From a virus: a DNA stretch of 21,444 nucleotides. A model generated the notes under the pieces. That model searched no databases and was not told the DNA's origin. It saw only the letters and a list, made by a program, of their open reading frames with translations. Below, in pieces: positions 4,365 through 21,444 of this stretch; the first letter of the stretch is position 1, and each line of letters opens with the position of its first letter. Position numbers and translations under genes: made by a program. The stretch is from UHGV virus genome UHGV-1982450; one strand, 5' to 3'.

Positions 4365-4366
4365 CT

Positions 4367-8021: not shown

Positions 8022-8023
8022 GT

Positions 8024-8411: not shown

Positions 8412-8421
8412 TGTCGAAGTT

Positions 8422-8437
8422 CCCCTCAAATGAGGGG
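8422..8437. terminator. Candidate hairpin (CCCCTC-AAAT-GAGGGG) between the convergent spanin-like and GNAT toxin genes
   Basis: 6-bp GC stem with a 4-nt loop, followed on the plus strand by a moderately U-rich stretch ACAUUAUUCUU. Confidence 0.35.
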
Positions 8438-8443
8438 GACACA

Positions 8444-8965: not shown

Positions 8966-8972
8966 GAGTAAA

Positions 8973-9242: not shown

Positions 9243-9510
9243 GTGTACCCCCTGATGGCCGGTGATGTAGGAAGGCCATCATTGCTCTCTATTTAAACTG
9301 AGTTTTCGACTCAAAGGTTATTTAACTGGGCTATAGCCCATTGCGTATGTGTCATCAAATTGTGTACGGCAATTTACCGTACTCGTAATATAGAGGTGAT
9401 TGTCACTTTTTTCAACAGACAAATGAAAACAGTTACTAGCAATAGGCAATAACAACCTACTAAATAACCTTTACACCGCAGCCGTAGGCATTTAGGCTAT
9501 ATCGCATATA

Positions 9511-9526
9511 AGAAAACAAGTTGTTT
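9511..9526. promoter_or_regulatory. Dyad motif AGAAAACAAGTTGTTT, 36 bp upstream of the parA-like start
   Basis: Same AAACAA-N-TTGTTT palindrome as at 3668-3682 and 12440-12455. Confidence 0.4.
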
Positions 9527-9561
9527 CATACGACAATAATTCACGCAAAGGAAACTCACCA

Positions 9562-10227
9562 ATGACCAAGATCATTGTGGTTGGCGGCACAAAAGGCGGC
9601 CCAGGCAAATCTACCGTTGCCCAGCAAATTGCGGTATGTCTCAAAGTTAAAAAGAAAAAGAAGGTTCACGTCACCGATATCGATATCCAGCGCACCACGA
9701 CCAGCTGGTGTGAAGACCGTCGCCAGAACGAAGATCTTGAACTGATCCCGTTCGCTTATGTGCAGGACGACATCGTCAAACATCTTAAATCGCTTCAGGG
9801 GCGAACTGATTATGTAGTGGTAGATGCTGGTGGCTTTGACTCCGAAATTCAGCGTCTGGCGATGCTTATGGCTGATGTAATCATCATCCCGCTGCGCCCT
9901 AAACGTCGTGATTTGAAATCTCTGCGTGATATCGACCCGATTATCGACAACGTTCGCAATGTGAACGAGAAAGTTAAGATCCGCGCGGTAATAAACCAGT
10001 GTCCGTCATTGCCTTCCCAGGTATCACGTATTCTGGCCGCGAAGGAAATTGTCGAAACTTTCGGCATCGAGGCTGCGCCGGTTAACCTGTACAACCGTAA
10101 CGTTTATGACGATGCGGAAGAGGCAGGTCGTTCTATCTTTGAAATGACTGGCGCTGAACGCGATAAGAAGGCAGAAGCCGAGTTCGAAGAGTTTGTAGAT
10201 TACATCTTGAGTCTGGAGGAAGAATAA
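9562..10227 (+). CDS. parA: ParA/ParF-type partition ATPase (small deviant Walker-A ATPase)
   Basis: Deviant Walker A GGTKGGPGKST at the N-terminus, size of about 221 aa typical of type Ib ParA/ParF, and a coupled downstream small RHH gene. Confidence 0.9.
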   Translation: MTKIIVVGGTKGGPGKSTVAQQIAVCLKVKKKKKVHVTDIDIQRTTTSWCEDRRQNEDLELIPFAYVQDDIVKHLKSLQGRTDYVVVDAGGFDSEIQRLAMLMADVIIIPLRPKRRDLKSLRDIDPIIDNVRNVNEKVKIRAVINQCPSLPSQVSRILAAKEIVETFGIEAAPVNLYNRNVYDDAEEAGRSIFEMTGAERDKKAEAEFEEFVDYILSLEEE

Positions 10228-10586
10228 TGTCCATGAGAATGGGAGACCTTGCAAAGCGCAATGAGCCTAAAGAACCGGCCAAAAGCAGCACTCCACTGCG
10301 CCAGCCAGTCAGACCGCAGGGGCGTCCGACTCGTGGCAAAGAGAAAATTAAAAGTCGCACAATGTCACTGGAAGACGAATACTTCGAACTGCTGGAGATG
10401 ATGAAGTTCATCCCTCGTTTCGAGAAGTTCACCCGTTCTGACGTGATTCGCGCTGCTATTTTCCATCTGGCAGAGAAGTCACCGCAGGAAATCGAGGACA
10501 TCGTGAAACTTAACGAGGCGATCACAGCTGCCGATGTCACGATGCGTACCGATGAAATCAAACGAGAGTTGATGAAGAAAGGTTAA
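10227..10586 (+). CDS. ParG-like centromere-binding protein (basic disordered N-tail plus C-terminal RHH)
   Basis: Start overlaps the parA stop (TAATG). Basic N-terminal tail and C-terminal RHH pattern SLEDEYFELLEMM ... RSDVIRAAIFHL. Confidence 0.6.
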   Translation: MSMRMGDLAKRNEPKEPAKSSTPLRQPVRPQGRPTRGKEKIKSRTMSLEDEYFELLEMMKFIPRFEKFTRSDVIRAAIFHLAEKSPQEIEDIVKLNEAITAADVTMRTDEIKRELMKKG

Positions 10587-10590
10587 AAAT

Positions 10591-10623
10591 TATGCATTGG
10601 CGCAATGTACGCGCCAATGCATA
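10591..10623. terminator. Bidirectional terminator candidate: 13-bp perfect stem (TATGCATTGGCGC / GCGCCAATGCATA) with a 7-nt loop, between convergent genes
   Basis: Read directly. An A/T tract (AAAAATT) flanks it on the left, which gives a U-tract for the minus-strand transcript. Confidence 0.5.
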
Positions 10624-10638
10624 AGTACAGTGTCAGCT

Positions 10639-11406
10639 TTATGCCGCGCTAACACTATGTTCATTCCTAACCACCCCAACCTTCACAAAAGGGCTGCCGT
10701 AGCTTGGTGGCTTCTTGATTAATTTGCCTACATACAGTTTTCTAATATGCTCATCGGCTATTCTGCCAACAAATTCATAACGTTTTGTGTCGGGGCCAAG
10801 AGCTATATCCCTTGTAAAGTACTGCTGAGAACCGGCTTTGACCCAGCATTCAATCTGATAAACTTCCATTATCAGGCCCCCATATGTAGCGTAGGCATAT
10901 TTGAGATTCTCGTCTCTTGGAACCTTTGCCCATACGCCACGCGTAGCTTCATATAATGCCAGAGCGGACATTCCTGACTTGTAGGTGCTGTTTAGCAGGA
11001 AGGCAAGACCGGCGTGCTCAGGAGCAATTTCAGTTTCCTCTTGCAGCACTAAGTGATGGTAGGCGTCCAGTGATATTCTGCCCATCATGGAACCACTTCC
11101 TCGTACCTTATTCGTAAGCTCTCCGACCCCCATAAGGTCGATGCATGTCGCCTCAACAAGTTTGGCTGTGGTTTCATCCATACCATGACGAAGAATATCT
11201 ATGCCTAATTTTTTATTAGCCAAAAGTTCTTTGATCCGCATGGATTTGGGAGAGTCATCGGGATACTTGATGTGATCGAGACAACGAGTCGATTTGCCTT
11301 TTCCTATGTAAAACGGTCTTTTCATCTTGTCTTCTGTATCATAGAGACAGTAAACATAGTATTTAGCCTTATCCAATGATCTCGCGTATACCGATAAATC
11401 GTCCAT
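10639..11406 (-). CDS. GIY-YIG nuclease domain protein with an uncharacterised C-terminal domain of about 150 aa
   Basis: N-terminal GIY-YIG motif YYVYCLYD ... PFYIGKGKSTRCLDH. The C-terminal half has no motif I recognise. Confidence 0.7.
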   Translation of the reverse strand: MDDLSVYARSLDKAKYYVYCLYDTEDKMKRPFYIGKGKSTRCLDHIKYPDDSPKSMRIKELLANKKLGIDILRHGMDETTAKLVEATCIDLMGVGELTNKVRGSGSMMGRISLDAYHHLVLQEETEIAPEHAGLAFLLNSTYKSGMSALALYEATRGVWAKVPRDENLKYAYATYGGLIMEVYQIECWVKAGSQQYFTRDIALGPDTKRYEFVGRIADEHIRKLYVGKLIKKPPSYGSPFVKVGVVRNEHSVSAA

Positions 11407-11518
11407 TATTGCATCTCTTAGCTACTGACTAATGCGTTCTATTTTACACATAAGTTTTTAATCAATTTTACAGGCTCAAAGTGTAGAGCTTCTGGGTGTC
11501 TAAGACGACAAGTTATGC

Positions 11519-11583
11519 CTGTTTCTGTATATAAATAATAAGTAACTTATTAAATATATACGGAAGCAGGTCTTTTAAAAGAC
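11519..11583. repeat. Degenerate copy of the 3549-3611 inverted repeat (shared core TATATAAATA-TAAGT-ACTTATTAAATATATACGGAAGCAGG) immediately followed by a 14-bp perfect palindrome GTCTTTTAAAAGAC (11570-11583)
   Basis: Read directly. Intergenic, between the divergent GIY-YIG gene and the ORF starting at 11689. Confidence 0.7.
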
Positions 11584-11688
11584 ACCCACCAGAACAACTC
11601 CCTTCCGTTTCCACTTCCCAAAAATATCTCCAGTCGCTATGATTCGCTCACTTAGATAAGTAAGTACATACCTATTAAAGGGAATCAT

Positions 11689-12414
11689 GTGAGCCAGATC
11701 TTCTTCAACACTATCGACAATGACCAGTACGATTTCATGACAGAGTGGAACACCGCAGTCATGGATAAGTGGGTAGCGGAGAACATTGGCCTGTCACGTT
11801 GCAAGGACGAGGCGGAACTGTTCGAAACCAAATGGTTTGACTATCGCGATATGCACCCGCTCATGGCCACATGCCTTTTCACTGAGGCATACAAGCGCCA
11901 GTACTCATACATCATGCTGTCGCATGGTCGTGAACACTATGAGACGGCTCCATTCACAACCGGTCTGAAGCGTGTGCCATATCAGGAGTTGTCGACTGCC
12001 AATAAAACGTCTCTATGGAAAGCACGCCAGTTTGCTGACCGCTATTGCTGCTCATACGACTACTTTATCTCCACCGTTCTTTCCGCAGCTGCACGACGGC
12101 TGTGGGACAAATTACCGCGCCCCCAGCATCTCTGGCAGCCCGAGTTGATCGATATATTCGAAGAGAAGTTAGCCAAACGCGCTGTAACCCGTCTGGATGA
12201 CTCTCTGGTGAGTTTTAAGCATCTTGGAGACATGCAGCGTGACCCGATTCAGGAACGCTATTTTGAGTGGATTCTGGAGCGTCTGCGTGGCATTACCCGA
12301 GATAAACGCATCCGTATCATCTTCTCCGCTGTCTGGTTGATGGAAATCGTGCCTGAGCGTGTGATTTACGCGCACTTCCCGGAAGAACTGGAAGAAGCAC
12401 GGCGATTCTGTTGA
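11689..12414 (+). CDS. Hypothetical protein (241 aa, GTG start)
   Basis: Long ORF with Shine-Dalgarno AAAGGG 7 nt upstream of the GTG. No recognisable motifs. Confidence 0.55.
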   Translation: MSQIFFNTIDNDQYDFMTEWNTAVMDKWVAENIGLSRCKDEAELFETKWFDYRDMHPLMATCLFTEAYKRQYSYIMLSHGREHYETAPFTTGLKRVPYQELSTANKTSLWKARQFADRYCCSYDYFISTVLSAAARRLWDKLPRPQHLWQPELIDIFEEKLAKRAVTRLDDSLVSFKHLGDMQRDPIQERYFEWILERLRGITRDKRIRIIFSAVWLMEIVPERVIYAHFPEELEEARRFC

Positions 12415-12439
12415 TCCCCTATCTGGCTTTTTTAGTATT

Positions 12440-12455
12440 AGAAAACAAATTGTTT
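12440..12455. promoter_or_regulatory. Dyad motif AGAAAACAAATTGTTT, 20 bp upstream of the DnaB-like helicase start
   Basis: Same palindrome family as at 3642-3682 and 9511-9526. Confidence 0.4.
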
Positions 12456-12474
12456 AAGCACCAAAGGAAAGCAC

Positions 12475-13815
12475 ATGACCGAACTTTGCCACACAGGACG
12501 AGGGTTGTCTGAAGAGTTCGACGACGACTTCCAGAATAGACTCGCTGCCTACTTCTGTCGCGACCATGAGTTTCTGACTCGCGCAGGCGATCTGGTTGCC
12601 CCAAACCAGTTCTCTAATGCGGCTAACTCCATTCTGGTTAACATGGTGTCGGGCTACTACAGAATGTATAAGAGCGCACCATCATCATCAGCCATCCTCG
12701 ACATGCTCAAACGCGCCAAACGCGATAAGACGATCCGCGAAGAGCTGTTCCCTGACGTTGTTGAGGCGTTTAAGCGCATTCTCGCTGAGAAGCTGTCAGA
12801 TACGGCGTACATGGTCGACCAGGTCGCGACATTTGCTAAAAGCGTAGCGTTCGACGATGCGCTAATTAAAGCGGCTGAGATGAAAGAGAAGGGCGATTTC
12901 CAGGGCGCGATGGCAATCATGGCTAAGGTCCAGCAAATTGGCTCTAACGAAGCGACCGGCATTTACGATTACTTCGCAGAATCAGCGGAGCGTTACAAGG
13001 CCCGTGAGTACGAAGCGTCCGACGATTACGTGCCAAACAGCATCACTACCGGCCTCCCGCTGCTCGACAAACTGCTTTACCAGAAAGGCTGGGCAAAGCG
13101 TGAAATGGTGCTGTTTATGGGCTTCGCTAAGTCTGGTAAATCGACGGCGATGGGGGAGTTTTCCATCAACGCCACGCTTGCCGGTTACAACGTCCTGTAT
13201 CTGTCGCTGGAAGTTCACACCTCCATTCTGTCAGATCGCTTTGACGCCCGTCTGTCTGAGACCGAAATGTCCAGGCTGGTGGAACGTCGCGATGACGTCC
13301 ATCGCAAACTGGCGGAGCTGGGTGCGACGAAAGGCGTGGGAAGTTTGTGGATTGTTGAACGACCGTCCGGAAGCATGTCGCCCGCAGATCTGGATCGTAT
13401 GTTGGGCAGCATGAAAGCCAACGGCATGGTCCCCGATATGGTTGTGGTCGACTACGCTGACCTGATGCGTGCCAGCTACGACCTCCGCGACGACCGCGCT
13501 AACATTCGCAGCATCTACACTGACCTGCGTGCGCTGTACGACAAACACAACGTTGCCGGCATCACGGCATCGCAGACTAACAGAGAAGGTGGCGCTTCTG
13601 AGGTGGCTACAATGATGCACGCAGCGGACAACATCGAGAAGGTGCGTATCGCTGACCTCGTTATCACTATCAACAAAACGGAAGAAGAAGAAGCGAAAGG
13701 CGAAGCGCGTCTTTACTTCGCTGGTTCACGTAACCAGAAAGGCGGCGTAAGCATCCGCGTTAAGCAGAACCTCGAACAAATGCGATTCATCGAACGCATT
13801 ATGGACGTCCTCTAA
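12475..13815 (+). CDS. DnaB-like replicative helicase (RecA-fold C-terminal domain)
   Basis: Walker A GFAKSGKST followed by the DnaB-family pattern LYLSLEV ... VVVDYADLM ... ITASQTNREG. Shine-Dalgarno AAGGA before the ATG. Confidence 0.85.
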   Translation: MTELCHTGRGLSEEFDDDFQNRLAAYFCRDHEFLTRAGDLVAPNQFSNAANSILVNMVSGYYRMYKSAPSSSAILDMLKRAKRDKTIREELFPDVVEAFKRILAEKLSDTAYMVDQVATFAKSVAFDDALIKAAEMKEKGDFQGAMAIMAKVQQIGSNEATGIYDYFAESAERYKAREYEASDDYVPNSITTGLPLLDKLLYQKGWAKREMVLFMGFAKSGKSTAMGEFSINATLAGYNVLYLSLEVHTSILSDRFDARLSETEMSRLVERRDDVHRKLAELGATKGVGSLWIVERPSGSMSPADLDRMLGSMKANGMVPDMVVVDYADLMRASYDLRDDRANIRSIYTDLRALYDKHNVAGITASQTNREGGASEVATMMHAADNIEKVRIADLVITINKTEEEEAKGEARLYFAGSRNQKGGVSIRVKQNLEQMRFIERIMDVL

Positions 13816-13875
13816 AAAAGAAGGCGTGGGGAAACACTCTCCACGCCTGTCTCCAGAAGAGAACAAATTTCTCTT

Positions 13876-15087
13876 TTGCCAAAACCACAAAAGAAAAAAC
13901 ACATGAGCCTTTATGGTATTCAAATACCGAGGCTTATCAAGATATTACCTGCAAAAAATAGGGGTAAGAACGTGAGCGACTTGAAAGAATTACTGACCGA
14001 GCTGGATTTTGAGCAATGGCTCGATATGGAAGGGATCATCTACCGTCGTGGTGGAGTCAGTACTCGCGGACGAGAGGTCAACATTAAAGAGTGTCCGGTA
14101 TGCGGCAGCTCAAACTGGAAGGTTTATTTCAACCTGACCAGTGGTGTCGGCAAATGCTTTGCAGGCGATCATCCCGAAGAGATTCAGTTCAACAAGCTGG
14201 TCTTCCTAAAGCATTACAGCGGCAAATCTCGTCGCGATTTTGAAGAGTACGTCCAGAACGCGCTGATCTCACAAGGATGGGCACCGAAGAAGGAAGAGAT
14301 CGTACTGGCCAGCAAGGTTGAACTGGAAGGACCGGTAGCTCTCCCGCGCCATTACGAACTCCCCATTGACGGTCGTCTTCCTGATTATCTGGTGGAGCGC
14401 CAGATTTCCCCGGAGCTGGCCAAATACTTTGATCTGCGTTACTGCGTCGAAGGCAAGCACGCATACGTCGATCCGTACACAGACCAGGTCAAAGGACAGG
14501 TATTCGATATGCGAATACTGATACCGGTTTACGATCTGGATGGCGTGATGAAGACCTTCCAGGGTCGTGACATTACCGGTGCAGCAGAACGCCGGTATCT
14601 GTTCCCCATGCAGCTGCCAGCATCGGGTAAATTTCTCTACAACGGCCACAATGCAGTCGGCAAACAGACTGTAGTTGTCTGTGAGGGGGCGTTCGATGTT
14701 ATGGGGGTTAAACGAGCTATTTTTGATGAAGAAACATTACGCGATTACGTGGAACCGATAGGAACGTTCGGGATGCATCTATCTGGTAACACCACTCAGG
14801 ATGCAGAAGATCAGTTGGGCGCGTTCCTGACGCTCAAGGCGCGTGGATTACGTAATGTGATTATGATGTGGGATAGTGAAAAGCAAGCTATACGCAACAC
14901 GATGGCCGCAGCCAGGCGACTGACTAGTATCGGTCTTAATGTCAAAGTAGCGTGTTTGGGCGAGGAAGGACTCGACCCCGGCGATGCGACACCGGGGCAG
15001 ATTATCAAAGCCTACTATTGCGCAAAACCTTATTCACGACAGCTTGAACTTTTAAGCAAGGTAAAAGGCATAGCTGCATTAGTTTGA
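13876..15087 (+). CDS. DNA primase (zinc-ribbon plus TOPRIM); the true start is probably downstream of 13876
   Basis: Zinc-ribbon CPVCGSS ... KCFAGDH resembling the T7 gp4-type primase zinc-binding domain, and a TOPRIM-like acidic motif VVVCEGAFDVMG. Alternative starts at 13903 (ATG) or 13972 (GTG with a GGGG Shine-Dalgarno). Confidence 0.8.
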   Translation: MPKPQKKKHMSLYGIQIPRLIKILPAKNRGKNVSDLKELLTELDFEQWLDMEGIIYRRGGVSTRGREVNIKECPVCGSSNWKVYFNLTSGVGKCFAGDHPEEIQFNKLVFLKHYSGKSRRDFEEYVQNALISQGWAPKKEEIVLASKVELEGPVALPRHYELPIDGRLPDYLVERQISPELAKYFDLRYCVEGKHAYVDPYTDQVKGQVFDMRILIPVYDLDGVMKTFQGRDITGAAERRYLFPMQLPASGKFLYNGHNAVGKQTVVVCEGAFDVMGVKRAIFDEETLRDYVEPIGTFGMHLSGNTTQDAEDQLGAFLTLKARGLRNVIMMWDSEKQAIRNTMAAARRLTSIGLNVKVACLGEEGLDPGDATPGQIIKAYYCAKPYSRQLELLSKVKGIAALV

Positions 15088-15229
15088 ACCAGTATTATCA
15101 ACGGCTCGGTAGTGTCTAAATTATCCGTGGCGATTCAGTTCTTTTCGTGGGTATGTCTACTTATAGATATTTGTTTGTGTTGTGTTCTTGGTCGAATACA
15201 ATTAATCTGCATGGTTAATGGACTAAAAA

Positions 15230-16216
15230 TTGTCGTTCTTTGGGGGAGAAGTGAACATTGTAGATGCTCTTGTTCTCAAGAAGTTAATGAGCGTTGGTGA
15301 TGAAACTGTTCTGTCAATCTTAAAGTTTTCAGCGTACAGCGGAGTGTCAACACTCGAAGAACTGGTAGTTAACTCCTCCAATCTGAAAATCTCAAATGGT
15401 AAATCTCGAGCAACTCTCGAAAGTTTCTTCGACGCTGCGAACTTCCAGGCTCTCAGGGACGAAGTAAAAACAGAGATTGATTCGTTCAAAAATAAAGGAG
15501 TTGAGATTGTTATCTTCGGTTCGAAAAACTATCCAATTTCGTTATATGATCTCCCGAAACCTCCACCCTTTCTTTACTGTAAAGGCAATCTAAATCTCTT
15601 AGAGAATAGGCTTTCATTAGCTGTTGTAGGAACTCGTGAAAACACCCCCAAGGGTGAAACCCTAACGATTAAAACTATTCAAAAGTTTGCGACTTATGGC
15701 TTCACGATAGTCAGTGGACTTGCACTGGGTATCGATACAATTGCTCATCGCGCGGCATTAGATGCCAAAACACCAACGATTTCTGTTCTTGTCGATGTGG
15801 AGTCTATTTCTCCCGCAAGTAATCGGGAACTCGCTAAGGAAATATTGGACGAGGGCGGACTTCTAGTTGCAGAGAATGCACCAGGAACCAAAGCAATACC
15901 TGCGTTCTTTGCTAAGCGAGACAGGATACAAGCAGGTTTATCTACTGCCGTCTTTGCTATTGAAACTTCGATAGATGGTGGGACGATGCACGCAGTCAAA
16001 TCTGCTATCTCTATGATGCGTCCTGTCTTCGTTCCTGACGTACATAAAGCTAAGTATCCAGATCTTACTATCAAGGCAATTTCAGGAACTCAACAGCTAG
16101 TTAACGAAGGGAGGGCGATACCATACACGAGCGAATCTTATGAAGATATTCGTCTTCAATTAGAAGATATCGCGAGTTCATTTGGGTCGTTGAAAGCAAA
16201 AGGTGGCCTGCTGTGA
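15230..16216 (+). CDS. DprA/Smf-like (SLOG-type Rossmann) protein; candidate antitoxin or partner of the downstream PRTase fusion protein
   Basis: DprA signature LAVVGTR ... GFTIVSGLALGIDTIAHRAAL ... FAKRDRIQAGLSTAVFAIETSIDGGTMHA. Its stop overlaps the start of the next gene (GTGA). Start may be TTG at 15230 or GTG at 15251 (GGGGGAG Shine-Dalgarno). Confidence 0.85.
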   Translation: MSFFGGEVNIVDALVLKKLMSVGDETVLSILKFSAYSGVSTLEELVVNSSNLKISNGKSRATLESFFDAANFQALRDEVKTEIDSFKNKGVEIVIFGSKNYPISLYDLPKPPPFLYCKGNLNLLENRLSLAVVGTRENTPKGETLTIKTIQKFATYGFTIVSGLALGIDTIAHRAALDAKTPTISVLVDVESISPASNRELAKEILDEGGLLVAENAPGTKAIPAFFAKRDRIQAGLSTAVFAIETSIDGGTMHAVKSAISMMRPVFVPDVHKAKYPDLTIKAISGTQQLVNEGRAIPYTSESYEDIRLQLEDIASSFGSLKAKGGLL

Positions 16217-19200
16217 TAAAGGTCATCGTCCTCGATCTTGATGACACGCTTATTGATACATCAAGCCTCGAACCACTTCGGTTAGCTGGCCGATGGAGAG
16301 ACATACCCAGGTACTTTAATGGTTGTGTCATCAATCAGGACGTTGTCGGCCTTGTTACAACGGCTCGGTCGGTTGGAATCAAGGTTGCTATCTTCTCGAA
16401 TGCGCCTTCGAACTACGTTCAGGGGCTACTCAAACACTTCAGTATCACTGTTGATTATGTAGTAGCCTACCATGATGTAACGCAGCATAAGCCGAGCCCT
16501 GAGGGCGTTACTCGTATTCTCGAGTACTTCGGTGTTAGCGCCGACGAGTCAATTTATTTAGGAGATAGTAACCTAGATCGAGACGCTGCTTCCAATGCAG
16601 GAGTTGAGTTTTTCTCAGTAGATTGGGGTTCTGCCTCGGAGATCGATTCGTCACATAAGGGAATAAGCGGTCTCTCCGAGCTTATTGGAAAAAACTCGAC
16701 GCGGAGCTCCGCAAGAACTGGACGTTCTGAGTTAATACAATCTGGGAATAAACTTCATCTGGGATTCTATTTAGATGGTATCAAACAGGAAGTTTGGTCT
16801 TTCAAGGATAACAAGAATACTTCTGTTCGCCGCTGGGTTAACAAGACTGTTGAGCTAGCTTCTTCATTCCCAGCCATAGATATAGTTGTTCGAGCGTTAG
16901 GTCACGCTGAGCTTAGGGCTGAAGATGGCGATAAAGCATTAGATACCTTGGGCAAATCGCTGGCTGTTGCTTTAGGGGCTTCTTACCAACCTAAGATATT
17001 AGAGAAAGATCACGTATTAGATAAATCGACTAATTGCACTGCAGCACAAAGACTCCACCAGGTCAGAGGTGCCTATAAAGCCGATTTTGATTCAATAGAA
17101 GCTAATTCAAATCCGACATTTCTGATCATTGACGACGTATTAACTTCGGGGGCTACAACTGATGAGATAACACGCTGTCTATCTCAAGCTTTTCCGAATT
17201 CAAGTATTTACATTTTTACGTTGGTTAAAACTCTCTATAGATTGGAGCTATGCACTGACAGCCAAGAACAACAACACAATAACCAACTGTTTTCAGATTT
17301 GTACAACCCAATCATCGACTCGCTGGCGGACGAAAGTGAACTATCTAGACATGTCAGGTCGAAGTCTAGTAGCAGGCTTGTAAGCAAGAAGTTTTCTGCT
17401 AACTACGCGAGAACCAACCATAACTTCATTTTCCACAATCTTCTCCAGTATTCTATCTCGTCTGAAGCGGCGTCTGGACAGCTATTTGCAGCAATTCAAG
17501 TTCTTAAGAATATGCTTCAGAGAGGGAAGCCAACAATAGCCTCGCGGAAGCTGAGGAAGGCATTTGGCATTGAACTGGATCAGAACGTTCTTAATACACC
17601 AGCTCAGGCTCTTGTGTCAGATAAGCCGGTTTTTTGGAATAGATTGATTCGAGGCCACAAACAGTCAGGAAACTACCCAGCGAAAAGGTTTTTTGATGAG
17701 CTGATACCGAAGTATTTCGGTAAGTACATTTTTGTAAAACAACTAATGCTCCCTGAAGTCCAGATTTACGATATGACTCAGGTCTACGTTGAACAATTCC
17801 AGAACCGACAGGTAGATTTTTACATTCCTCAAGTTGGTTTAATTATTGAGATAGACGGTCAGCAGCACCAAAATTCTCAGCATTTAGATGAAATGAGGGA
17901 TGCGTTTACCGAAAGCCTGGGACTGAAGACTGTTCGATTCACTGTTCAAGAACTGGCATCTGAGAACCAGTCATTTATCAGTAAGATAAATTCGATTATT
18001 TCTCACATTCAGATCGTTGATGGTCTAGAGCGAAATGGTGTCCTAACGCCTCCTAATGGTATTTCTTTATTGAATTACCAAGAGGCTTACGAAAATGGAG
18101 TCGATGTTACTGACTCGCGATTGAGGCTGACCTCGGCGTTGCGTTTCCAGATACTGTTATTAGAGCTTCTTGAACGCGGTCAGATCAGACTAGGGGAGTT
18201 GAAAAAACTATTCATAGTCAATCGTGATGGAACTGATTTTGCTGAAGCGGCACTGGACGACCTGAACGATTTGTTATCGAATATCTTTCGTCTCATCGGC
18301 ATTGAAGAAAAGCGAATTGAGGTTGCGCTGATCGAATCAGATGAGCTTCCGAGCGAACGGTCTGGTGAAAATATATTCATCGACTTCAGCTTACTGGAGC
18401 GTTATGACGATTCCTTTCAAGTTAACCAAGACGTCATATATTCACGTACGGATTACTTCGATTTCTATCGAAACTTCGAAGATTCTGATGCTGTTTCAAT
18501 AGAAACCAGTCAATTGATTGACTATGACTTTTTTGAGCTTTCATGTAGTAACCCCATTACCTACAAGCTAGATCTTAGCCCAGGCAGCGAGCAGAGAGAG
18601 TCGCTGAGATACTTCCTCAGCAACCTGTTTCTACCATACCTAGAGGATGTAGATTTCAGGGAAGGGCAGGTTGGTATCATAGGATCTGCACTTTCGAAAA
18701 ACGGCACAATAGGATTGCTGCCTACAGGTTCGGGTAAGTCGATTTGTTACCAGCTGTCTGCGGTCCTGCAACCAGCCGTTAGCTTTGTCGTGTGCCCGAT
18801 AAAAAGTTTGATGTATGACCAGAAAGCAGATTTGGATAGCATCGGCTTCACTCGAAGCAATTTTATTACAAGTGATTTGAAGGCAGGAGAGAAGGCCAAA
18901 GTTCAGAGAGATTTCGGACGTGGTAAGTACTTCTTCGTTTTTATATCGCCTGAGCGATTCCAAACCCATGCGTTTAGAAAAGAGATGTTGGCTATCGGAC
19001 TAGATCTCTCATTTGCCTACGCGGTGATCGATGAAGCTCACTGTTTGTCTGAGTGGGGACATGATTTCAGGACTTCTTATCTGAACCTGGCAAATACAAT
19101 CGAACGGTTTGCTCCCAGTGCGAGTTATATAGGTCTAACGGCAACAGCATCAGTTAACGTCCTAAAGGATATTCAAACAGAGTTTGATATCCCAGATGAT

Positions 19201-20889
19201 TTTGTCCGTACCCCCATGGACTTCACTCGCGAGGAACTATCATTCCACGTCATTGACGATAAAGGCCGTAAAGGTGATGCAGTCGTCGAGCTTGTTTCTG
19301 AAATGGAGGGTAAATGGAATTCAGATGGGGAAGACGGCAATAAGGCGGGGATCATATTCACTTCTACCGTCAACGGAGCTAAGGGGTGTTATAGCTTAGC
19401 GGGCCGAATATCAACACTCTTGAAGATGGATGTTAGATATTTTTCGGGGTCGGCTCCGAAAATGGGTGGATTGCAGGGAGAGGCTTTCGATAGATATAAG
19501 CGCCAAGTTCAAGACGATTTTAAAGAAAATAAATACCGCCTACTTACTGCCACTAAGGCATTCGGAATGGGCGTGAATAAGGGAAATATTGCCTATACGG
19601 TTCACTTCGGAATACCTGGGTCGATGGAGGCCTTGTATCAGGAAGCTGGCAGGGCAGGGCGAGATAAAAAACTATTCAAGGAAGTACCCGCAGATTGCTA
19701 TGTGCTTCTCACAAAAGAGCCCAATTCAGCTATTCTCGACAAGATTTGGGACGCTAGCACGAACGTCAAAGATCTGAAGGAGTACGTGAAGTCATTGAGT
19801 CGCGATAGCGACCTGAACACAAATCTATTCCTGATGACAAACGGCTTGGGCACAATCAATGATGAGTTCAAGTTGATGGCAAATGTATACGAATTTTTTA
19901 AGTACAATCAGGAACACAACACGGTGACCATTACTGCCAGGCAGTTTGGTACGGAAAAGTTTAAATTGGAAAAGGCTATCTACCGCCTTTCTCAATTAGG
20001 TATTGTCTCTGACTGGGTAATCGAAGACTTTTTTAATGGAACGCTCTCTGTCGAGTTCCAGTGCCTATCGGAAGAAGGCCTGGAAAAGAAAATTGAGCAT
20101 ACCGTCAGAAAGTATGATCCTGAGTTTAAGCTCGCTGATGTGTTCAGTAGTGATAACCAGTACTACAAAATTCTCTGCGACAAGCTGAGAAAAGGGTCTA
20201 TCGATAAATCGCAATTTATCTTTCTTGTTCTTTTACTTTGGTCCTATGACCATTTTGTCTACAACCGCCGCCAGTCACAGAAGAACGTTTATGAACACTG
20301 TAGTTTATTTGCTGAAGGCAGGATGGATGGTAAAGAATTTAAGGAGAAGTTAGAGGGTTATTTCAGACACGACAAGTCGAGCCAACTTTTGCTCAATATG
20401 GCTGAGAATTCTGTGTCGGTGAAGTTATGGCCATCAGTTTTTTTTGAAACTGATGAAGAAGAGGGCTCGGAACATTTAGTAAGCAGCGAGAAGATGACGA
20501 TCCTACGAGGTCAGATTTCTCGATTCCTAGAGTCATACAAAGATAATGCATTCTTGAACTACTTGAGTGGTGTGCTGCGACTAGCTTCCGATGAGTTTGA
20601 TGATGCAGATGGAGAGCGAAGAATGGCATCGTCATTTGATCGGTTGATCAGTGATAATAGGGATGAAGCACTAGAGCTGGTCCGAAAAACTATGCAGTTA
20701 AAACCAATATTTTCTGAAAATGCGCGAAGTCGCTTTGCTCGTTTGGTCCATGAGAAATTTGAAGATTTGGATTTTCTTGGGGAAGTAAATGAAGAGCTAG
20801 GAGATCCGTTCTCCTATCACACTTTGTTAGCTCCACTGGCAATTAGACTTGAAAAACTTACCAGCCTATACAAGGGGATTAATTGGTGA
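16213..20889 (+). CDS. 1558-aa multidomain protein: N-terminal HAD-like phosphatase, ComF-like PRTase, Vsr/DUF559-like endonuclease-fold module, RecQ-family SF2 helicase core, and an uncharacterised C-terminal region of about 390 aa
   Basis: HAD motifs DLDDTL, FSNA, HKP, GDSNLDRD (aa 1-140). PRTase PRPP loop FLIIDDVLTSGATT (nt 17119-17160). Vsr-like pattern DFYIPQVGLIIEIDGQQH ... TVRF (about nt 17710-17997). RecQ motifs LLPTGSGKS, VVCPIKSLMYDQ, VIDEAHCLSEWGHDFR, LTATA, ATKAFGMGVNK, YQEAGRAGRD (about nt 18610-19692). Confidence 0.9.
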   Translation: MIKVIVLDLDDTLIDTSSLEPLRLAGRWRDIPRYFNGCVINQDVVGLVTTARSVGIKVAIFSNAPSNYVQGLLKHFSITVDYVVAYHDVTQHKPSPEGVTRILEYFGVSADESIYLGDSNLDRDAASNAGVEFFSVDWGSASEIDSSHKGISGLSELIGKNSTRSSARTGRSELIQSGNKLHLGFYLDGIKQEVWSFKDNKNTSVRRWVNKTVELASSFPAIDIVVRALGHAELRAEDGDKALDTLGKSLAVALGASYQPKILEKDHVLDKSTNCTAAQRLHQVRGAYKADFDSIEANSNPTFLIIDDVLTSGATTDEITRCLSQAFPNSSIYIFTLVKTLYRLELCTDSQEQQHNNQLFSDLYNPIIDSLADESELSRHVRSKSSSRLVSKKFSANYARTNHNFIFHNLLQYSISSEAASGQLFAAIQVLKNMLQRGKPTIASRKLRKAFGIELDQNVLNTPAQALVSDKPVFWNRLIRGHKQSGNYPAKRFFDELIPKYFGKYIFVKQLMLPEVQIYDMTQVYVEQFQNRQVDFYIPQVGLIIEIDGQQHQNSQHLDEMRDAFTESLGLKTVRFTVQELASENQSFISKINSIISHIQIVDGLERNGVLTPPNGISLLNYQEAYENGVDVTDSRLRLTSALRFQILLLELLERGQIRLGELKKLFIVNRDGTDFAEAALDDLNDLLSNIFRLIGIEEKRIEVALIESDELPSERSGENIFIDFSLLERYDDSFQVNQDVIYSRTDYFDFYRNFEDSDAVSIETSQLIDYDFFELSCSNPITYKLDLSPGSEQRESLRYFLSNLFLPYLEDVDFREGQVGIIGSALSKNGTIGLLPTGSGKSICYQLSAVLQPAVSFVVCPIKSLMYDQKADLDSIGFTRSNFITSDLKAGEKAKVQRDFGRGKYFFVFISPERFQTHAFRKEMLAIGLDLSFAYAVIDEAHCLSEWGHDFRTSYLNLANTIERFAPSASYIGLTATASVNVLKDIQTEFDIPDDFVRTPMDFTREELSFHVIDDKGRKGDAVVELVSEMEGKWNSDGEDGNKAGIIFTSTVNGAKGCYSLAGRISTLLKMDVRYFSGSAPKMGGLQGEAFDRYKRQVQDDFKENKYRLLTATKAFGMGVNKGNIAYTVHFGIPGSMEALYQEAGRAGRDKKLFKEVPADCYVLLTKEPNSAILDKIWDASTNVKDLKEYVKSLSRDSDLNTNLFLMTNGLGTINDEFKLMANVYEFFKYNQEHNTVTITARQFGTEKFKLEKAIYRLSQLGIVSDWVIEDFFNGTLSVEFQCLSEEGLEKKIEHTVRKYDPEFKLADVFSSDNQYYKILCDKLRKGSIDKSQFIFLVLLLWSYDHFVYNRRQSQKNVYEHCSLFAEGRMDGKEFKEKLEGYFRHDKSSQLLLNMAENSVSVKLWPSVFFETDEEEGSEHLVSSEKMTILRGQISRFLESYKDNAFLNYLSGVLRLASDEFDDADGERRMASSFDRLISDNRDEALELVRKTMQLKPIFSENARSRFARLVHEKFEDLDFLGEVNEELGDPFSYHTLLAPLAIRLEKLTSLYKGINW

Positions 20890-21374
20890 ATGACATACAG
20901 AAACTACACCGGGTAATCGATTCACTCGAAGAGCAATCGACGCAAGTGGCACAGTTTAATGGCCTGTTGAGCGCCGTCAGCGATGCAAGAACTGAGATAG
21001 AGGCTGCGAAATCAACGCTCGTAAATCTAGCTTATGAACACGCTGAATTGTTTACGAAGAACTCGAATAAATTTGAAGAGTTTGACGGCCGCCTTATGTC
21101 ACTAAATGATCTTCTAGGCCAGATCAAAGATGAACAGTTGAAACTAAGGCGTGAGGTTGCAGCCTTGAAGTTTGTAACACCAGAGCAGTTTGAACAAGGC
21201 TGCACAGCAATTGATAGCCGCATTGCTAAACAATTAGCGGAATTGAAAAGCAAGTTAGAGGCGGCGGCGGAGTCTCAGCAAAGATCGATAAGCGGGCTAC
21301 GAACCATAGTTGTTTTAGGTATCTTGGTGTTGGCTGGAGGTGTCGGATTCTTGGCTATGAATATTTTTCTTTAA
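20883..21374 (+). CDS. Coiled-coil protein with a C-terminal transmembrane anchor; possible third component of the DprA-PRTase-helicase locus
   Basis: Start (TTG 20883 or GTG 20886) overlaps the stop of the 1558-aa gene. Heptad-rich helical sequence and a C-terminal TM helix IVVLGILVLAGGVGFLAMNIF. Confidence 0.5.
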   Translation: MVNDIQKLHRVIDSLEEQSTQVAQFNGLLSAVSDARTEIEAAKSTLVNLAYEHAELFTKNSNKFEEFDGRLMSLNDLLGQIKDEQLKLRREVAALKFVTPEQFEQGCTAIDSRIAKQLAELKSKLEAAAESQQRSISGLRTIVVLGILVLAGGVGFLAMNIFL

Positions 21375-21444
21375 TTTTCAGATTGTCATTCAGTTTTTAG
21401 TTGTAATCAATAAGTTGGAATACAGAGGCTTTTTCCTCTGCTGT

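What the first reader, a model, noticed from the sequence alone, without database searches (positions are those of the whole stretch)
15088..21444. Compositional shift: the right-hand 6 kb looks AT-richer than the replication and packaging backbone
By eye, 15.1-21.4 kb has markedly more A/T-rich codons and runs than the packaging and replication genes, with an AT-rich leader at 15088-15229. The TA module (8.4-9.3 kb) and the GIY-YIG gene (10.6-11.4 kb) look similar. This suggests accessory cargo of different origin inserted into a GC-balanced backbone. I did not compute numbers.
Basis: seen in the sequence. Interest (0 to 1): 0.4.

Follow-up and report, generated by a model that had tools for sequence, protein, structure and literature searches.

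The report
AT-rich defence cassette in a phage-plasmid
The AT-rich right-hand 6 kb is real: it is a horizontally transferred three-gene cassette, related to the ShosTA anti-phage toxin-antitoxin system but with the toxin fused to a nuclease-helicase, sitting in a variable hotspot of an SSU5-like phage-plasmid.

Summary
Observation confirmed. GC falls from 0.499 (1-15000) to 0.431 (15001-21444). The best change point is at 15000, and no 500-bp block shuffle out of 1000 reaches its score. Synonymous codon usage differs strongly from the backbone (chi2 394, df 41), while two backbone halves do not differ (p 0.16). The TacAT and GIY-YIG islands have the same composition (GC 0.43).

Interpretation supported. 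The window is a defective SSU5-like phage-plasmid segment carried on E. coli plasmids. The block lies in a hotspot downstream of the primase gene. That site is empty in phage Cyrano and holds other AT-rich cargo in SSU5, pJH51-3 and pLAO59. The left edge (15087/15101-15137) is the end of an IS3-family element.

The same 6.3-kb unit occurs at 94-97% nucleotide identity in SXT/R391-like conjugative elements of marine bacteria, in E. coli chromosomal defence islands and in Klebsiella IncF plasmids.

It encodes three proteins:
- a DprA-like protein whose best solved match is ShosA;
- a 1558-aa fusion of a HAD and phosphoribosyltransferase module (best fold match ShosT), a DUF559 nuclease, a RecQ-like helicase and an unmatched C-terminal domain;
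- a small coiled-coil membrane protein.

I read it as an untested fused variant of the ShosTA/PsyrTA defence family. The compositional finding itself is ordinary; the cassette is moderately interesting.

The parts
15087..15137 (+). 3' end (right inverted repeat, IRR, ...GTGTCTAAATTATCCGTGGCGATTCA) of an IS3-family insertion sequence. It marks the left edge of the cargo. The first 14 bp (AACCAGTATTA...) overlap the phage-plasmid backbone by microhomology.
   Evidence: Matches the 3' end of a full-length 1229-bp IS3-family element (L022 2884-2934). Homology to pJH51-3 stops at 15100 and to pLAO59 at 15137.
15138..15229 (+). An 8-bp junction, then the cassette's own AT-rich upstream region, which travels with the cassette from about 15140-15149.
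   Evidence: 94-97% identical in ICE, chromosomal and plasmid copies from 15140/15149 onward. GC of 15088-15229 is 0.366. No consensus sigma-70 promoter was found on the + strand.
15230..16216 (+). DprA-like protein, ShosA/PsyrA-type putative antitoxin or sensor (328 aa from TTG 15230). Alternative starts are GTG 15251 and ATG 15287.
   Evidence: Pfam DNA_processg_A 1.9e-53. PADLOC ShosA 1.5e-67 and PsyrA 1.7e-28. Best solved structures are ShosA 8zva/9vzo at 6e-34, against canonical DprA at 1e-20. RefSeq uses three different starts.
16213..20889 (+). 1558-aa multidomain protein. Domains:
- HAD phosphatase, aa 1-~146;
- phosphoribosyltransferase (PRTase), aa ~175-345;
- DUF559/Vsr-like nuclease, aa ~513-600;
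- RecQ-like helicase core, aa 813-1153;
- conserved C-terminal domain, aa 1153-1558.
Its start overlaps the dprA stop by 4 nt.
   Evidence: Pfam HAD_2, DUF559, DEAD and Helicase_C. PADLOC DpdF PDLC02868 3e-112 (aa 471-1471), PsyrT 8e-61, ShosT 1.4e-7. N-terminal 470-aa model: best Foldseek PDB match is ShosT 8zvd at 1e-13. RecQ structures 4e-41. TIGR00614 RecQ family 223.6 bits against a cut-off of 219.8. Catalytic residues are conserved in at least 30 of 33 aligned proteins (this one plus 32 homologues).
20883..21374 (+). Small protein (162-163 aa; ATG at 20886) with an N-terminal coiled coil and a C-terminal transmembrane helix. Its reading frame overlaps the end of the 1558-aa gene.
   Evidence: The same position and architecture are seen in homologous operons at 51%, 45% and 36% identity of the large protein, including the short form that lacks DprA and PRTase. 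No Pfam or NCBIfam family.
21427..21444 (.). Sequence beyond the point where this copy of the cassette is truncated. Other copies continue for at least 73 bp more.
   Evidence: Alignment of right ends.
8394..9464 (-). AT-rich island 1: TacT/KacT-type GNAT toxin (8444-8965) and TacA antitoxin (8973-9242).
   Evidence: Pfam Acetyltransf_1 and TacA1 3.5e-26. No SSU5 homology at this position. GC 0.432.
10585..11517 (-). AT-rich island 2: GIY-YIG protein (10639-11406), similar to the single-gene defence system PD-T4-3.
   Evidence: PADLOC PD-T4-3 1.3e-23. Pfam LEM-3_GIY-YIG 5.5e-7. No SSU5 homology here. GC 0.434.
559..15087 (.). SSU5-like phage-plasmid backbone, GC about 0.50-0.52 outside the islands. 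Genes: DEAD-box helicase, ParB, small and large terminase, portal, ParA, DnaB-like helicase, primase.
   Evidence: 81-92% nucleotide identity to SSU5, Cyrano, pJN2-26 and CMS-2020a. Pfam. Synteny.

Best explanation
The AT-rich block (window about 15138 to the end; cassette homology 15140-21426) is horizontally acquired cargo. It occupies a recombination hotspot downstream of the primase gene of an SSU5-like phage-plasmid. It was captured between two copies of an IS3-family element, of which only the inner ends remain.

The cargo is a self-contained three-gene operon that moves between mobile elements: SXT/R391-like ICEs, IncF plasmids, chromosomal defence islands and phage-plasmids. Its ~43% GC and its use of codons rare in E. 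coli reflect a donor of lower GC than E. coli and recent transfer.

Functionally I take it to be an anti-phage, abortive-infection type toxin-antitoxin system of the ShosTA/PsyrTA (RqlHI) kind. The proposed mechanism is as follows.
- The DprA-like protein binds ssDNA and RecA and keeps the toxin harmless in uninfected cells.
- On infection (phage ssDNA or replication intermediates, or host shut-off) this restraint is lost.
- The ShosT-like HAD and PRTase module then consumes PRPP and perturbs nucleotide metabolism and DNA replication.
- The covalently linked Vsr-like nuclease and 3'-5' RecQ-like helicase act on DNA.
- The small coiled-coil membrane protein is a conserved partner of the helicase-nuclease half.

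Shown here: composition, hotspot polymorphism, IS ends, identity of the unit across elements, domain identities, conservation of catalytic residues, operon conservation, and defence-island neighbourhoods. Inferred: toxicity, neutralisation, trigger and anti-phage activity.
For: Foreign origin:
- Composition and codon statistics.
- Alternative occupants and an empty site at the same locus.
- 4 of 549 primase-bearing plasmids carry the cassette.
- The same unit is 94-97% identical in Advenella, Pseudoalteromonas, Maribrevibacterium, Marinomonas and Vibrio genomes. In Pseudoalteromonas, Maribrevibacterium and Vibrio it lies between traU-traN and a DNase I-like gene, ssb, bet and exo.
- It is also found in E. 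coli chromosomes and Klebsiella/Raoultella plasmids.
- IS3-family ends were verified against a full-length copy.

Function:
- ShosA is the best PADLOC and PDB match of gene 1.
- ShosT is the best structural match of the N-terminal two-domain module.
- PsyrT and RecQ match the helicase core.
- HAD (D8, D10, T12, K93, D118, D122), PRTase (D307, D308, T311, G313, T315), nuclease (D535, E546, D548) and helicase (K842, DEAH 940-943, R1147, R1150) residues are conserved across homologues of 41-95% identity.
- The DprA, ~1555-aa, ~160-aa operon is conserved at 45-51% identity.
- Neighbours are type I R-M, MZA, Hhe, DUF262, Zorya, BrxR, nSTAND and McrBC.
- ShosTA and RqlHI biology is taken from PMC11961720, PMC12961424 and PMC4670107.
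Against: - No experiment exists on this fused architecture.
- The PADLOC ShosT profile matches only weakly (1.4e-7, partial). A sequence profile of the N-terminal region reaches ShosT at only 1e-5, over 48 residues.
- The global TM-score to ShosT is low (0.30-0.34). I attribute this to a different relative orientation of the two domains in the model, which was not checked domain by domain.
- The donor lineage is not identified. The cassette GC (0.43) is below the flanks of three ICE copies (0.44-0.49), so the ICE is a vehicle, not the source.
- How two unrelated cargos came to lie between identical truncated IS remnants is unexplained. There is no target-site duplication, and no empty abutted junction was found.
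- In the sister plasmid p1585m1_B the large gene is split by IS1, so the cassette is dispensable.
Confidence: 0.8

Rival explanations
1. The block is native phage-plasmid DNA. Its AT-richness only reflects low expression, or relaxed or different codon selection, in accessory genes, not a different origin.
For: GC2 of the block genes (0.34-0.40) is similar to the backbone; the difference is mainly at GC3. Every occupant of this hotspot and both other islands are AT-rich (0.41-0.44). That could indicate a local mutational or selective regime.
Against: The site is empty in Cyrano and differently occupied in SSU5, pJH51-3 and pLAO59. The unit is 94-97% identical in ICEs of marine bacteria, in chromosomes and in IncF plasmids, with the same composition everywhere (0.429-0.434). 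It is bounded by IS ends.
Confidence: 0.03
2. The cassette is a DNA-uptake, recombination or repair module (DprA plus RecQ) that helps the mobile element or host process incoming DNA. An earlier ICE paper interpreted it this way. On this view it is not an immune system.
For: DprA loads RecA on ssDNA, RecQ helicases act in recombination, and ComF-type PRTases are competence proteins. NCBIfam GntX 1.4e-7 and Foldseek ComF 7p0h 7e-5. In ICEs it lies next to ssb-bet-exo. ICEValHN396 dprA and recQ were read as transformation genes in PMC4857294.
Against: Gene 1 is much closer to ShosA than to canonical DprA (6e-34 vs 1e-20) and scores below the NCBIfam dprA cut-off (159.7 vs 191). The N-terminal module is ShosT-like, and ShosT is a proven toxin. 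The protein also carries a Vsr/DUF559 nuclease. Neighbourhoods are defence islands in four unrelated contexts. [quoted passage not shown]
Confidence: 0.1
3. The cassette is primarily an addiction (post-segregational killing) module that stabilises whichever mobile element carries it. Any anti-phage effect would be incidental.
For: It always rides on mobile elements: phage-plasmid, IncF plasmids, ICE. ShosTA and RqlHI behave as toxin-antitoxin pairs with an unstable antitoxin (PMC11961720, PMC4670107). The same phage-plasmid hotspot holds Phd/Doc in other members.
Against: This reading is not exclusive of defence. ShosTA gives a 10^6-fold reduction of T7 plating (PMC11961720). Chromosomal copies sit among restriction and other defence genes. 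A 6.3-kb module with a helicase, a nuclease and a membrane protein is large for mere addiction.
Confidence: 0.15
4. The large protein belongs to a Dpd-like DNA-modification and restriction system (DpdF-type helicase), or itself phosphoribosylates DNA.
For: The best PADLOC profile is DpdF (PDLC02868, 3e-112, aa 471-1471). The nuclease region resembles modification-dependent restriction enzymes (PADLOC mREase_II 7.5e-9, Pfam PvuRts1I-like 2.9e-4). Russell and Mulvey speculated that RqlH might add PRPP to DNA (PMC4670107).
Against: NCBIfam DpdF scores 139 bits against a cut-off of 550. No DpdA/TGT, DpdB, DpdC or other dpd gene is present in any of the contexts examined.
Confidence: 0.05

Closest known systems
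ShosTA (type IV toxin-antitoxin anti-phage system; E. coli APEC O1; PDB 8zva-8zvd, 9vzo, 9w2p)
   Same: The DprA-like partner is the best PADLOC and PDB match of gene 1. The N-terminal module of gene 2 has the ShosT two-domain layout (HAD-like hydrolase followed by PRTase), and ShosT is its best structural match. The PRPP-loop aspartates essential for ShosT toxicity are conserved (D307/D308).
   Different: ShosT is a free-standing protein of about 424 aa. Here the module is the first ~360-470 residues of a 1558-aa protein that also carries a DUF559 nuclease, a RecQ-like helicase and a 400-aa C-terminal domain. A third gene (membrane coiled-coil protein) is present. Sequence similarity to ShosT is marginal (1e-5 to 1e-7).
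PsyrTA / RqlHI (RecQ-like helicase with PRTase toxin, plus DprA-like antitoxin)
   Same: It combines a RecQ-like helicase and a PRTase in one polypeptide, next to a DprA-like gene. PADLOC PsyrT 8e-61 and PsyrA 1.7e-28.
   Different: RqlH is 690 aa with the helicase N-terminal and the PRTase C-terminal. Here the order is reversed and HAD, DUF559 and a large C-terminal domain are added. RqlI is encoded downstream of rqlH; here the DprA-like gene is upstream. RqlI also carries a C-terminal HTH, whose presence or absence here I did not test; this protein is only 328 aa.
Short two-gene form (DUF559 and RecQ-like helicase of about 1160-1200 aa, plus a ~156-aa membrane protein), matched by PADLOC 'DpdF' profile PDLC02868
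   Same: The C-terminal ~1090 aa of the window protein and the downstream small protein are homologous to this pair (36-44% identity). It is also found next to McrBC and other defence genes.
   Different: The short form has no DprA-like gene and no HAD and PRTase module. The window system looks like this pair fused to a ShosTA pair.
SXT/R391 ICE variable region between traN and the nuclease-ssb-bet-exo genes (hotspot HS4), e.g. the ICEValHN396 'dprA and recQ' genes
   Same: The same cassette (94-97% nucleotide identity) lies between traN and the DNase I-like, ssb, bet and exo genes in Pseudoalteromonas, Maribrevibacterium and Vibrio genomes. A 2016 paper lists dprA and recQ among the variable genes of ICEValHN396, whose HS4 is 7.5 kb.
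   Different: Here the vehicle is a phage-plasmid, and the flanks are IS3-family remnants rather than ICE backbone.
Variable accessory regions of SSU5-group phage-plasmids (Pfeifer et al. 2021, PMC7969092)
   Same: A conserved phage and replication backbone with variable accessory genes between conserved operons.
   Different: This particular hotspot (primase to 270-aa gene) and this cargo were not, to my knowledge, described. I did not read that paper in full.

Membership tests
ShosTA | DprA-like antitoxin (ShosA) | tested here: met
   PADLOC ShosA PDLC03961 1.5e-67 (aa 40-283 of 328). Best PDB sequences are ShosA 8zva/9vzo at 6e-34.
ShosTA | Toxin with an N-terminal HAD-like pyrophosphatase domain followed by a PRTase domain with an intact PRPP loop | tested here: met
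   The AF2 model of aa 1-470 has ShosT 8zvd/8zvb/8zvc as top Foldseek PDB matches (E 1e-13 to 6e-12, 380-458 aligned columns). D307, D308, T311, G313 and T315 are invariant, and the HAD motifs are conserved.
ShosTA | Toxin is a free-standing two-domain protein of about 420-430 aa in a two-gene system | tested here: not met
   The module is the N-terminus of a 1558-aa protein with nuclease, helicase and C-terminal domains. The operon has three genes, and this holds in about 100 homologue clusters.
ShosTA | Toxicity neutralised by the partner; protection against phage | not testable with these tools
   Needs cloning, toxicity assays and plaque assays.
PsyrTA / RqlHI | RecQ-like helicase and PRTase in one toxin polypeptide | tested here: met
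   PADLOC PsyrT 8e-61 (aa 813-1153). PRTase at aa ~175-345.
PsyrTA / RqlHI | Domain order: helicase N-terminal, PRTase C-terminal, about 690 aa | tested here: not met
   The order here is HAD, PRTase, DUF559, helicase, C-terminal domain, 1558 aa in all. The RqlH architecture is taken from PMC4670107.
PsyrTA / RqlHI | DprA-like antitoxin with a C-terminal HTH, encoded downstream of the toxin gene | tested here: inconclusive
   A DprA-like domain is present (PsyrA 1.7e-28, covering profile positions 82-292 of 398). The protein is 328 aa and is encoded upstream. An HTH was not tested.
Dpd (7-deazaguanine DNA modification/restriction), DpdF | DpdF equivalog score | tested here: not met
   NCBIfam NF041063 DpdF scores 139.4 bits against a cut-off of 550. 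PADLOC DpdF profile PDLC02868 does match (3e-112).
Dpd (7-deazaguanine DNA modification/restriction), DpdF | Neighbouring dpdA (TGT-like), dpdB, dpdC and further dpd genes | tested here: not met
   None is present in the window or in nine other neighbourhoods of the cassette or its homologues.
RecQ family helicases | RecQ helicase core with Walker A, DEAH and motif VI | tested here: met
   TIGR00614 223.6 bits (cut-off 219.8). E. coli RecQ 1oyw 7e-41. K842, D940-E941-A942-H943 and Q1143...R1147...R1150 are conserved.
RecQ family helicases | RecQ equivalog with a RecQ C-terminal region | tested here: not met
   TIGR01389 recQ scores 240 bits against a cut-off of 640. The match to RecQ structures ends at aa 1152-1167. 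The AF2 model of aa 1153-1558 (pLDDT 86.5) has no PDB match with E below 0.05.
SSU5-like phage-plasmid (the backbone) | Synteny and nucleotide similarity of packaging, partition and replication genes with SSU5 and its relatives | tested here: met
   81-92% identity to SSU5, Cyrano, pJN2-26 and CMS-2020a. Same gene order from ParA to primase to ligase.
SSU5-like phage-plasmid (the backbone) | Complete virion module (capsid, tail, fibres) | tested here: not met
   The window jumps at 7844/7845 from the gene after portal into the 3' end of the lysis gene. An IS26 end lies at 1-55. The host records are IncF cointegrate plasmids.
SXT/R391 ICE hotspot cargo | Cassette located between traN and the nuclease-ssb-bet-exo genes of an SXT/R391-type ICE | tested here: met
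   L016: TraU and TraN (NF011458, 3.8e-299), then the cassette, then DNase I-like, SSB, Bet and lambda-Exo. The flanks are shared with L015 and L018. Naming this interval HS4 rests on my knowledge of SXT gene order.

The most novel reading that the evidence does not exclude
The cassette is a distinct, experimentally untested defence system. In it, a ShosT-type nucleotide-metabolic toxin is physically fused to a modification-dependent-type nuclease and a RecQ-like translocase, and is paired with a membrane coiled-coil protein. DNA sensing or translocation on phage DNA would then directly gate PRPP-dependent toxicity, or the PRTase would act on DNA itself. The same cassette is being exchanged almost unchanged between ICEs of marine bacteria and enterobacterial phage-plasmids, plasmids and chromosomes, through hotspots and IS-bracketed sites.
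Probability: 0.35. Interest if true: 0.6.

Novelty: new variant of a known kind. Interest (0 to 1): 0.42.

Why it matters
The compositional shift is a textbook sign of horizontally acquired cargo and is not surprising in itself. What it marks is more useful.

1. It marks a defined hotspot in SSU5-group phage-plasmids, just after the primase gene. That site collects AT-rich conflict, addiction and adhesion modules. Two further small islands, TacAT and a PD-T4-3-like GIY-YIG gene, behave the same way.

2. It marks a conserved three-gene system that joins the ShosTA and PsyrTA/RqlHI families in one polypeptide and adds a nuclease and a membrane partner. The physiological substrate of the ShosT PRTase, and the reason RqlH needs both helicase and PRTase, are open questions in the cited papers. 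A natural fusion of all these activities is a good handle on them.

3. Copies 94-97% identical occur in marine Vibrio, Pseudoalteromonas and Marinomonas ICEs and in E. coli and Klebsiella elements. This documents recent traffic of a defence cassette across very different mobile-element types and habitats.

Tried and rejected
- Xer/dif-like or integron attC-like site for the 25-bp inverted repeat around the cargo. Rejected: the repeats are the two ends of an IS3-family element, verified against a full-length 1229-bp copy.

- An abutted IRR-IRL junction acting as a landing pad that captures circular DNA through transposase supplied in trans. Not supported: there is no 3-4 bp direct repeat at the cargo ends, and no plasmid in PLSDB has the empty abutted junction.

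- A sigma-70 promoter or terminator in the leader. Only one weak minus-strand promoter-like match and no terminator.

- Sequence-level proof that the N-terminal module is ShosT. phmmer found no ShosT hit. A 13-sequence profile reached ShosT only at 1e-5, over 48 residues. The fold comparison was needed.

- Identifying the C-terminal 406 aa by fold. The model is confident, but the best Foldseek PDB E-value is 0.05, to helical-repeat proteins, which is meaningless.

- Identifying the donor from composition. The Marinomonas MAG flanks (0.42-0.43) and one Advenella flank (0.428) match the cassette GC. Three ICE copies have flanks of 0.44-0.49 apart from the right flank of the Pseudoalteromonas copy (0.36). 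This is not decisive.

- Search for an operator-like motif, TAAGTA-N(1-9)-TACTTA, in the window: no exact match.

- First mafft run on 96 full-length homologues timed out. It was repeated on 32.

- Pfam on the IS orfA remnant failed because the remnant is frameshifted. I read the translation directly instead.

Full report
**1. The observation**

The window has 47.9% GC overall. Positions 1-15087 have 0.498, positions 15088-21444 have 0.432, and the 142-bp leader 15088-15229 has 0.366 (profile). A maximum-likelihood single change point falls at 15000 with a log-likelihood ratio (LLR) of 42. The lowest-GC 6357-bp window in the whole sequence starts at 15078. Non-overlapping 500-bp windows differ between the two sides (0.499 vs 0.432, Mann-Whitney p 2.5e-5).

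An LLR of 42 is never reached in 300 base shuffles (maximum 8.0) or in 1000 shuffles of 500-bp blocks. It is reached in 18 of 1000 shuffles of 1500-bp blocks. So the shift is more than gene-scale heterogeneity.

The difference sits mainly at third codon positions. GC3 is 0.52-0.70 in backbone genes and 0.37-0.45 in the three right-hand genes. Synonymous codon usage differs strongly (chi2 394, df 41, p 3e-59), while two halves of the backbone do not differ (p 0.16). The block uses codons that are rare in E. coli:
- AGA+AGG: 40% of Arg vs 8% in the backbone;
- ATA: 28% of Ile vs 7%;
- CTA: 17% of Leu vs 2%.

Tetranucleotide usage correlates at 0.70-0.78 within the backbone and 0.40-0.64 between backbone and block.

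Finer segmentation gives 7777-11190 at 0.464 and 11191-11738 at 0.367. The two stretches with no SSU5 homology, 8394-9464 and 10585-11517, have GC 0.432 and 0.434. Their codon usage is close to the right block (p 0.04) and far from the backbone (p 2e-11).

**2. What the window is**

The backbone is an SSU5-group phage-plasmid. It encodes a DEAD-box helicase, ParB, small and large terminase, portal, ParA, a DnaB-like helicase and a primase. It is 81-92% identical at the nucleotide level to Salmonella phage SSU5, Escherichia phages Cyrano and CMS-2020a and Klebsiella phage pJN2-26.

The window is 100% identical to E. coli plasmids NZ_CP067400, NZ_CP086388 and NZ_MG516909. It is a defective copy:
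- an IS26 end lies at 1-55;
- at 7844/7845 the sequence jumps from the gene after portal into the 3' end of a lysis gene, so the head and tail genes are missing.

**3. The block is a variable occupant of one hotspot**

Homology to other SSU5-like elements stops just after the primase stop codon (15087). It stops at 15062 for SSU5, 15100 for pJH51-3 and 15137 for pLAO59. It resumes, beyond the window's end, upstream of a conserved 270-aa gene that precedes the DNA ligase gene.

The states of that interval are:

| Element | Content between primase and the 270-aa gene | GC of the interval |
|---|---|---|
| Phage Cyrano | empty (75 bp) | - |
| SSU5 | one 966-nt minus-strand ORF | 0.416 |
| pJH51-3 | Sel1/TPR gene plus a small ORF | 0.408 |
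| pLAO59, pYY76-1-1 | Phd/Doc plus a Yeh-type fimbrial operon | 0.439 |
| pLAO18 and the window's plasmids | this cassette | 0.432 |

In PLSDB, 549 plasmids carry the primase gene. The cassette is found in 12 plasmids, and only 4 of them (all E. coli) are in the phage-plasmid context.

**4. The edges are insertion-sequence ends**

The cargo is flanked by an imperfect 25-26-bp inverted repeat:
- left, in the window: ...GTGTCTAAATTATCCGTGGCGATTCA, ending at 15137;
- right, in pLAO18 and pLAO59: TGAATCGCCACAGGTTTAAYAGACAC...

The right copy is followed by a frameshifted IS3-family orfA fragment, which RefSeq annotates as 'transposase'. A full-length 1229-bp IS3-family element on an Enterobacter plasmid has exactly these two ends. 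Its last ~50 bp match window 15087-15137.

So the cargo sits between the inner ends of two directly oriented IS copies (IRR ... cargo ... IRL), both now truncated. In the window's own plasmid the right remnant has been further deleted and the cassette is cut at 21426. Other copies continue for at least 73 bp more.

The 'AT-rich leader' is therefore composite: primase tail, IS end, an 8-bp junction, and the cassette's own upstream region.

Unresolved: the DprA cassette and the Phd/Doc-fimbrial cargo lie between identical truncated remnants. I found no target-site duplication and no empty abutted junction in PLSDB.

**5. The same unit elsewhere**

Window 15140/15149-21426 recurs as one block in several places:
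- at 97% identity in three E. coli chromosomes;
- at 97% identity in Klebsiella and Raoultella plasmids;
- at 94-97% identity in genomes of Advenella mandrilli, Pseudoalteromonas atlantica, Maribrevibacterium harenarium, a Marinomonas MAG and Vibrio thalassae.

In the E. coli chromosome it lies between a type I R-M system with IS1 on one side and a PD-(D/E)XK nuclease, a restriction endonuclease and the MZA system on the other. In the Klebsiella IncF plasmid it lies between a type I R-M subunit and Hhe and DUF262 genes.

In Pseudoalteromonas, Maribrevibacterium and Vibrio the flanks are shared. They encode TraU and TraN on one side and a DNase I-like protein, SSB, Bet and lambda-Exo on the other. 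From my knowledge of SXT/R391 gene order, this is the traN-s063 variable region (hotspot HS4) of an SXT/R391-type ICE.

A 2016 paper lists 'dprA and accessory gene recQ' among the variable genes of ICEValHN396, whose HS4 is 7.5 kb, and read them as transformation genes (PMC4857294).

The cassette GC is 0.429-0.434 in every host. Three ICE copies have flanks of 0.44-0.49, apart from the right flank of the Pseudoalteromonas copy (0.36), and E. coli flanks are 0.47. The Marinomonas MAG flanks are 0.42-0.43. The vehicles are thus not the compositional source. A gammaproteobacterial donor of about 43% GC is plausible but unproven.

The left terminus of the unit is the same in ICE, chromosome/plasmid and phage-plasmid contexts, although the unit encodes no recombinase. 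I cannot explain this.

**6. What the cassette encodes**

*Gene 1 (15230-16216).* A DprA-like protein: Pfam 1.9e-53, PADLOC ShosA 1.5e-67, PsyrA 1.7e-28. Its best solved relatives are ShosA (8zva/9vzo, 6e-34), well ahead of canonical DprA (1e-20). It is below the NCBIfam dprA cut-off.

*Gene 2 (16213-20889, 1558 aa).* It overlaps gene 1 by 4 nt. Its parts are:
- a HAD hydrolase domain;
- a PRTase domain (FLIIDDVLTSGATT);
- a DUF559/Vsr-like nuclease (aa ~513-600), also similar to modification-dependent restriction enzymes;
- a RecQ-type helicase core (aa 813-1153), with E. coli RecQ at 7e-41, PADLOC PsyrT at 8e-61 and TIGR00614 just above cut-off;
- a conserved 400-aa C-terminal region.

An AlphaFold model of aa 1-470 (pLDDT 77) has the ShosT crystal structures as its best PDB matches. 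These span both domains (E 1e-13 to 6e-12), ahead of generic HAD phosphatases. ComF and APRT appear for the PRTase part.

A model of aa 1153-1558 (pLDDT 86.5) shows a winged-helix-like unit and a helical domain. It has no PDB match better than E 0.05.

*Gene 3 (20883-21374).* It overlaps the end of gene 2 and encodes a 163-aa coiled-coil protein with a C-terminal hydrophobic helix.

**7. The family**

About 100 clusters (at 90% identity) of 1500-1600-aa proteins with the same domain string exist at 41-95% identity, in diverse bacteria and metagenomes. A shorter form of about 1130-1200 aa lacks the HAD and PRTase module.

In a 33-sequence alignment (this protein plus 32 homologues) the catalytic residues of all four enzymatic domains are conserved:
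- HAD: D8, D10, T12, K93, D118, D122;
- PRTase: D307, D308, T311, G313, T315;
- nuclease: D535, E546, D548;
- helicase: K842, DEAH 940-943, R1147, R1150.

Operons at 51% and 45% identity keep the order DprA-like, ~1555 aa, ~160-195 aa. They lie next to integrase, SSB and reverse-transcriptase genes, or next to nSTAND, BrxR and Zorya genes.

The short form is followed by the same kind of small membrane protein, has no DprA, and lies next to McrBC. The window system therefore looks like a ShosTA pair merged with a two-gene nuclease-helicase and membrane-protein pair.

**8. How it most likely works**

Published work shows the following for the related systems.
- ShosT (HAD-like pyrophosphatase plus PRTase) is toxic through PRPP binding and perturbs purine metabolism and DNA replication.
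- ShosA is a DprA-like dimer that binds ssDNA and RecA and neutralises ShosT without binding it.
- Triggers proposed for ShosTA are T7 Gp0.7 shut-off and phage ssDNA (PMC11961720, PMC12961424).
- In RqlHI (PsyrTA), the PRTase domain of a RecQ-like helicase is genotoxic unless the DprA-like RqlI is present, and the two proteins interact (PMC4670107).

By analogy, I propose the following sequence.
1. The DprA-like protein restrains the large protein in uninfected cells.
2. Infection removes that restraint.
3. The PRTase and HAD module poisons nucleotide metabolism and replication.
4. The attached helicase and nuclease engage DNA.
5. The membrane protein partners the helicase-nuclease half.

All of these functional steps are inference. 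What is shown here is the anatomy, the conservation and the genomic company.

**9. Comparison and novelty**

The system works like ShosTA and PsyrTA, but it fails the architectural definition of each:
- ShosT is free-standing and ~424 aa;
- RqlH is 690 aa with the opposite domain order.

It is not a Dpd system either. It falls below the DpdF equivalog cut-off, and no other dpd genes are present. I found no paper in the searchable library describing this fused architecture as a defence system. The searches returned only the ShosTA papers and the P2/P4 hotspot paper.

I therefore file the cassette as a new variant of a known kind. The compositional observation itself is an ordinary, correctly read signature of acquired cargo.

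**10. Verdict**

- Observation: confirmed.
- Interpretation: supported.
- Interest: modest for the finding as written, somewhat higher for the cassette and the hotspot it reveals.

Noticed in passing
window 1-61: The end of IS26 (98-100% identical to IS26 in many records). The phage-plasmid segment is embedded in IS26-bounded cointegrate plasmids.
   Followed up: partly
window 7844-7845 (ORF 7254-8021): Deletion junction. Homology to intact SSU5-like elements switches here from the gene after portal to the 3' end of a 693-nt lysis or membrane-protein gene. All head and tail genes are therefore missing, and ORF 7254-8021 is a fusion. The element cannot make virions on its own.
   Followed up: partly
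window 11518-11570 and 11639-11688; also L002 ~23075-23110, L012 ~32850-32880, L013 ~19140-19170: A 53-bp near-perfect palindrome (core AATAAGTAACTTATT) lies exactly where SSU5 homology resumes after the GIY-YIG island. A related ATAAGTA...TACTTAT motif lies upstream of the 241-aa gene and upstream of the conserved 270-aa gene that closes the primase hotspot. It is a candidate operator or promoter element marking the right edge of two islands. The surrounding region, 11191-11738, has GC 0.367.
   Followed up: partly
window 10639-11406 (-): The GIY-YIG protein matches the single-gene defence system PD-T4-3 (PADLOC 1.3e-23, aa 11-231). With TacAT (8444-9242), all three AT-rich islands are conflict or addiction modules.
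   Followed up: partly
L001 28322-29019 (plasmid p1585m1_B; equivalent to window ~19480): In two sister plasmids the 1558-aa gene is split by an IS1 insertion. RefSeq annotates the halves as 'HAD-IA family hydrolase' and 'helicase-related protein'. The window copy is intact.
   Followed up: partly
L002 22628-23010; L004 26514-26919; window 15087-15137: Two unrelated cargos lie between the same truncated IS3-family remnants, in IRR...IRL order: the DprA cassette, and Phd/Doc plus fimbriae. There is no target duplication, and no empty junction exists in PLSDB. The mechanism of exchange is unknown.
   Followed up: yes
window ~15140-15149; L005 ~9996; L014-L016 ~4929: The cassette has the same left terminus in three unrelated flanking contexts (ICE, chromosome/IncF plasmid, phage-plasmid), although it encodes no recombinase.
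   Followed up: partly
window 19669-20886 (aa 1153-1558 of the large protein): A conserved 400-aa C-terminal domain is predicted with confidence (pLDDT 86.5; a winged-helix-like unit plus a helical bundle). It has no match among solved structures (best E 0.05).
   Followed up: yes
L010 8001-11958: A two-gene short form (DUF559 and RecQ-like helicase of 1161 aa, plus a 156-aa membrane protein) without DprA or PRTase lies next to McrBC. It is possibly an independent defence pair. PADLOC models it under the name DpdF.
   Followed up: partly
window 15230 / 15251 / 15287: Three in-frame candidate starts for the DprA-like gene (TTG, GTG, ATG). RefSeq records use all three (328, 321 and 309 aa).
   Followed up: no
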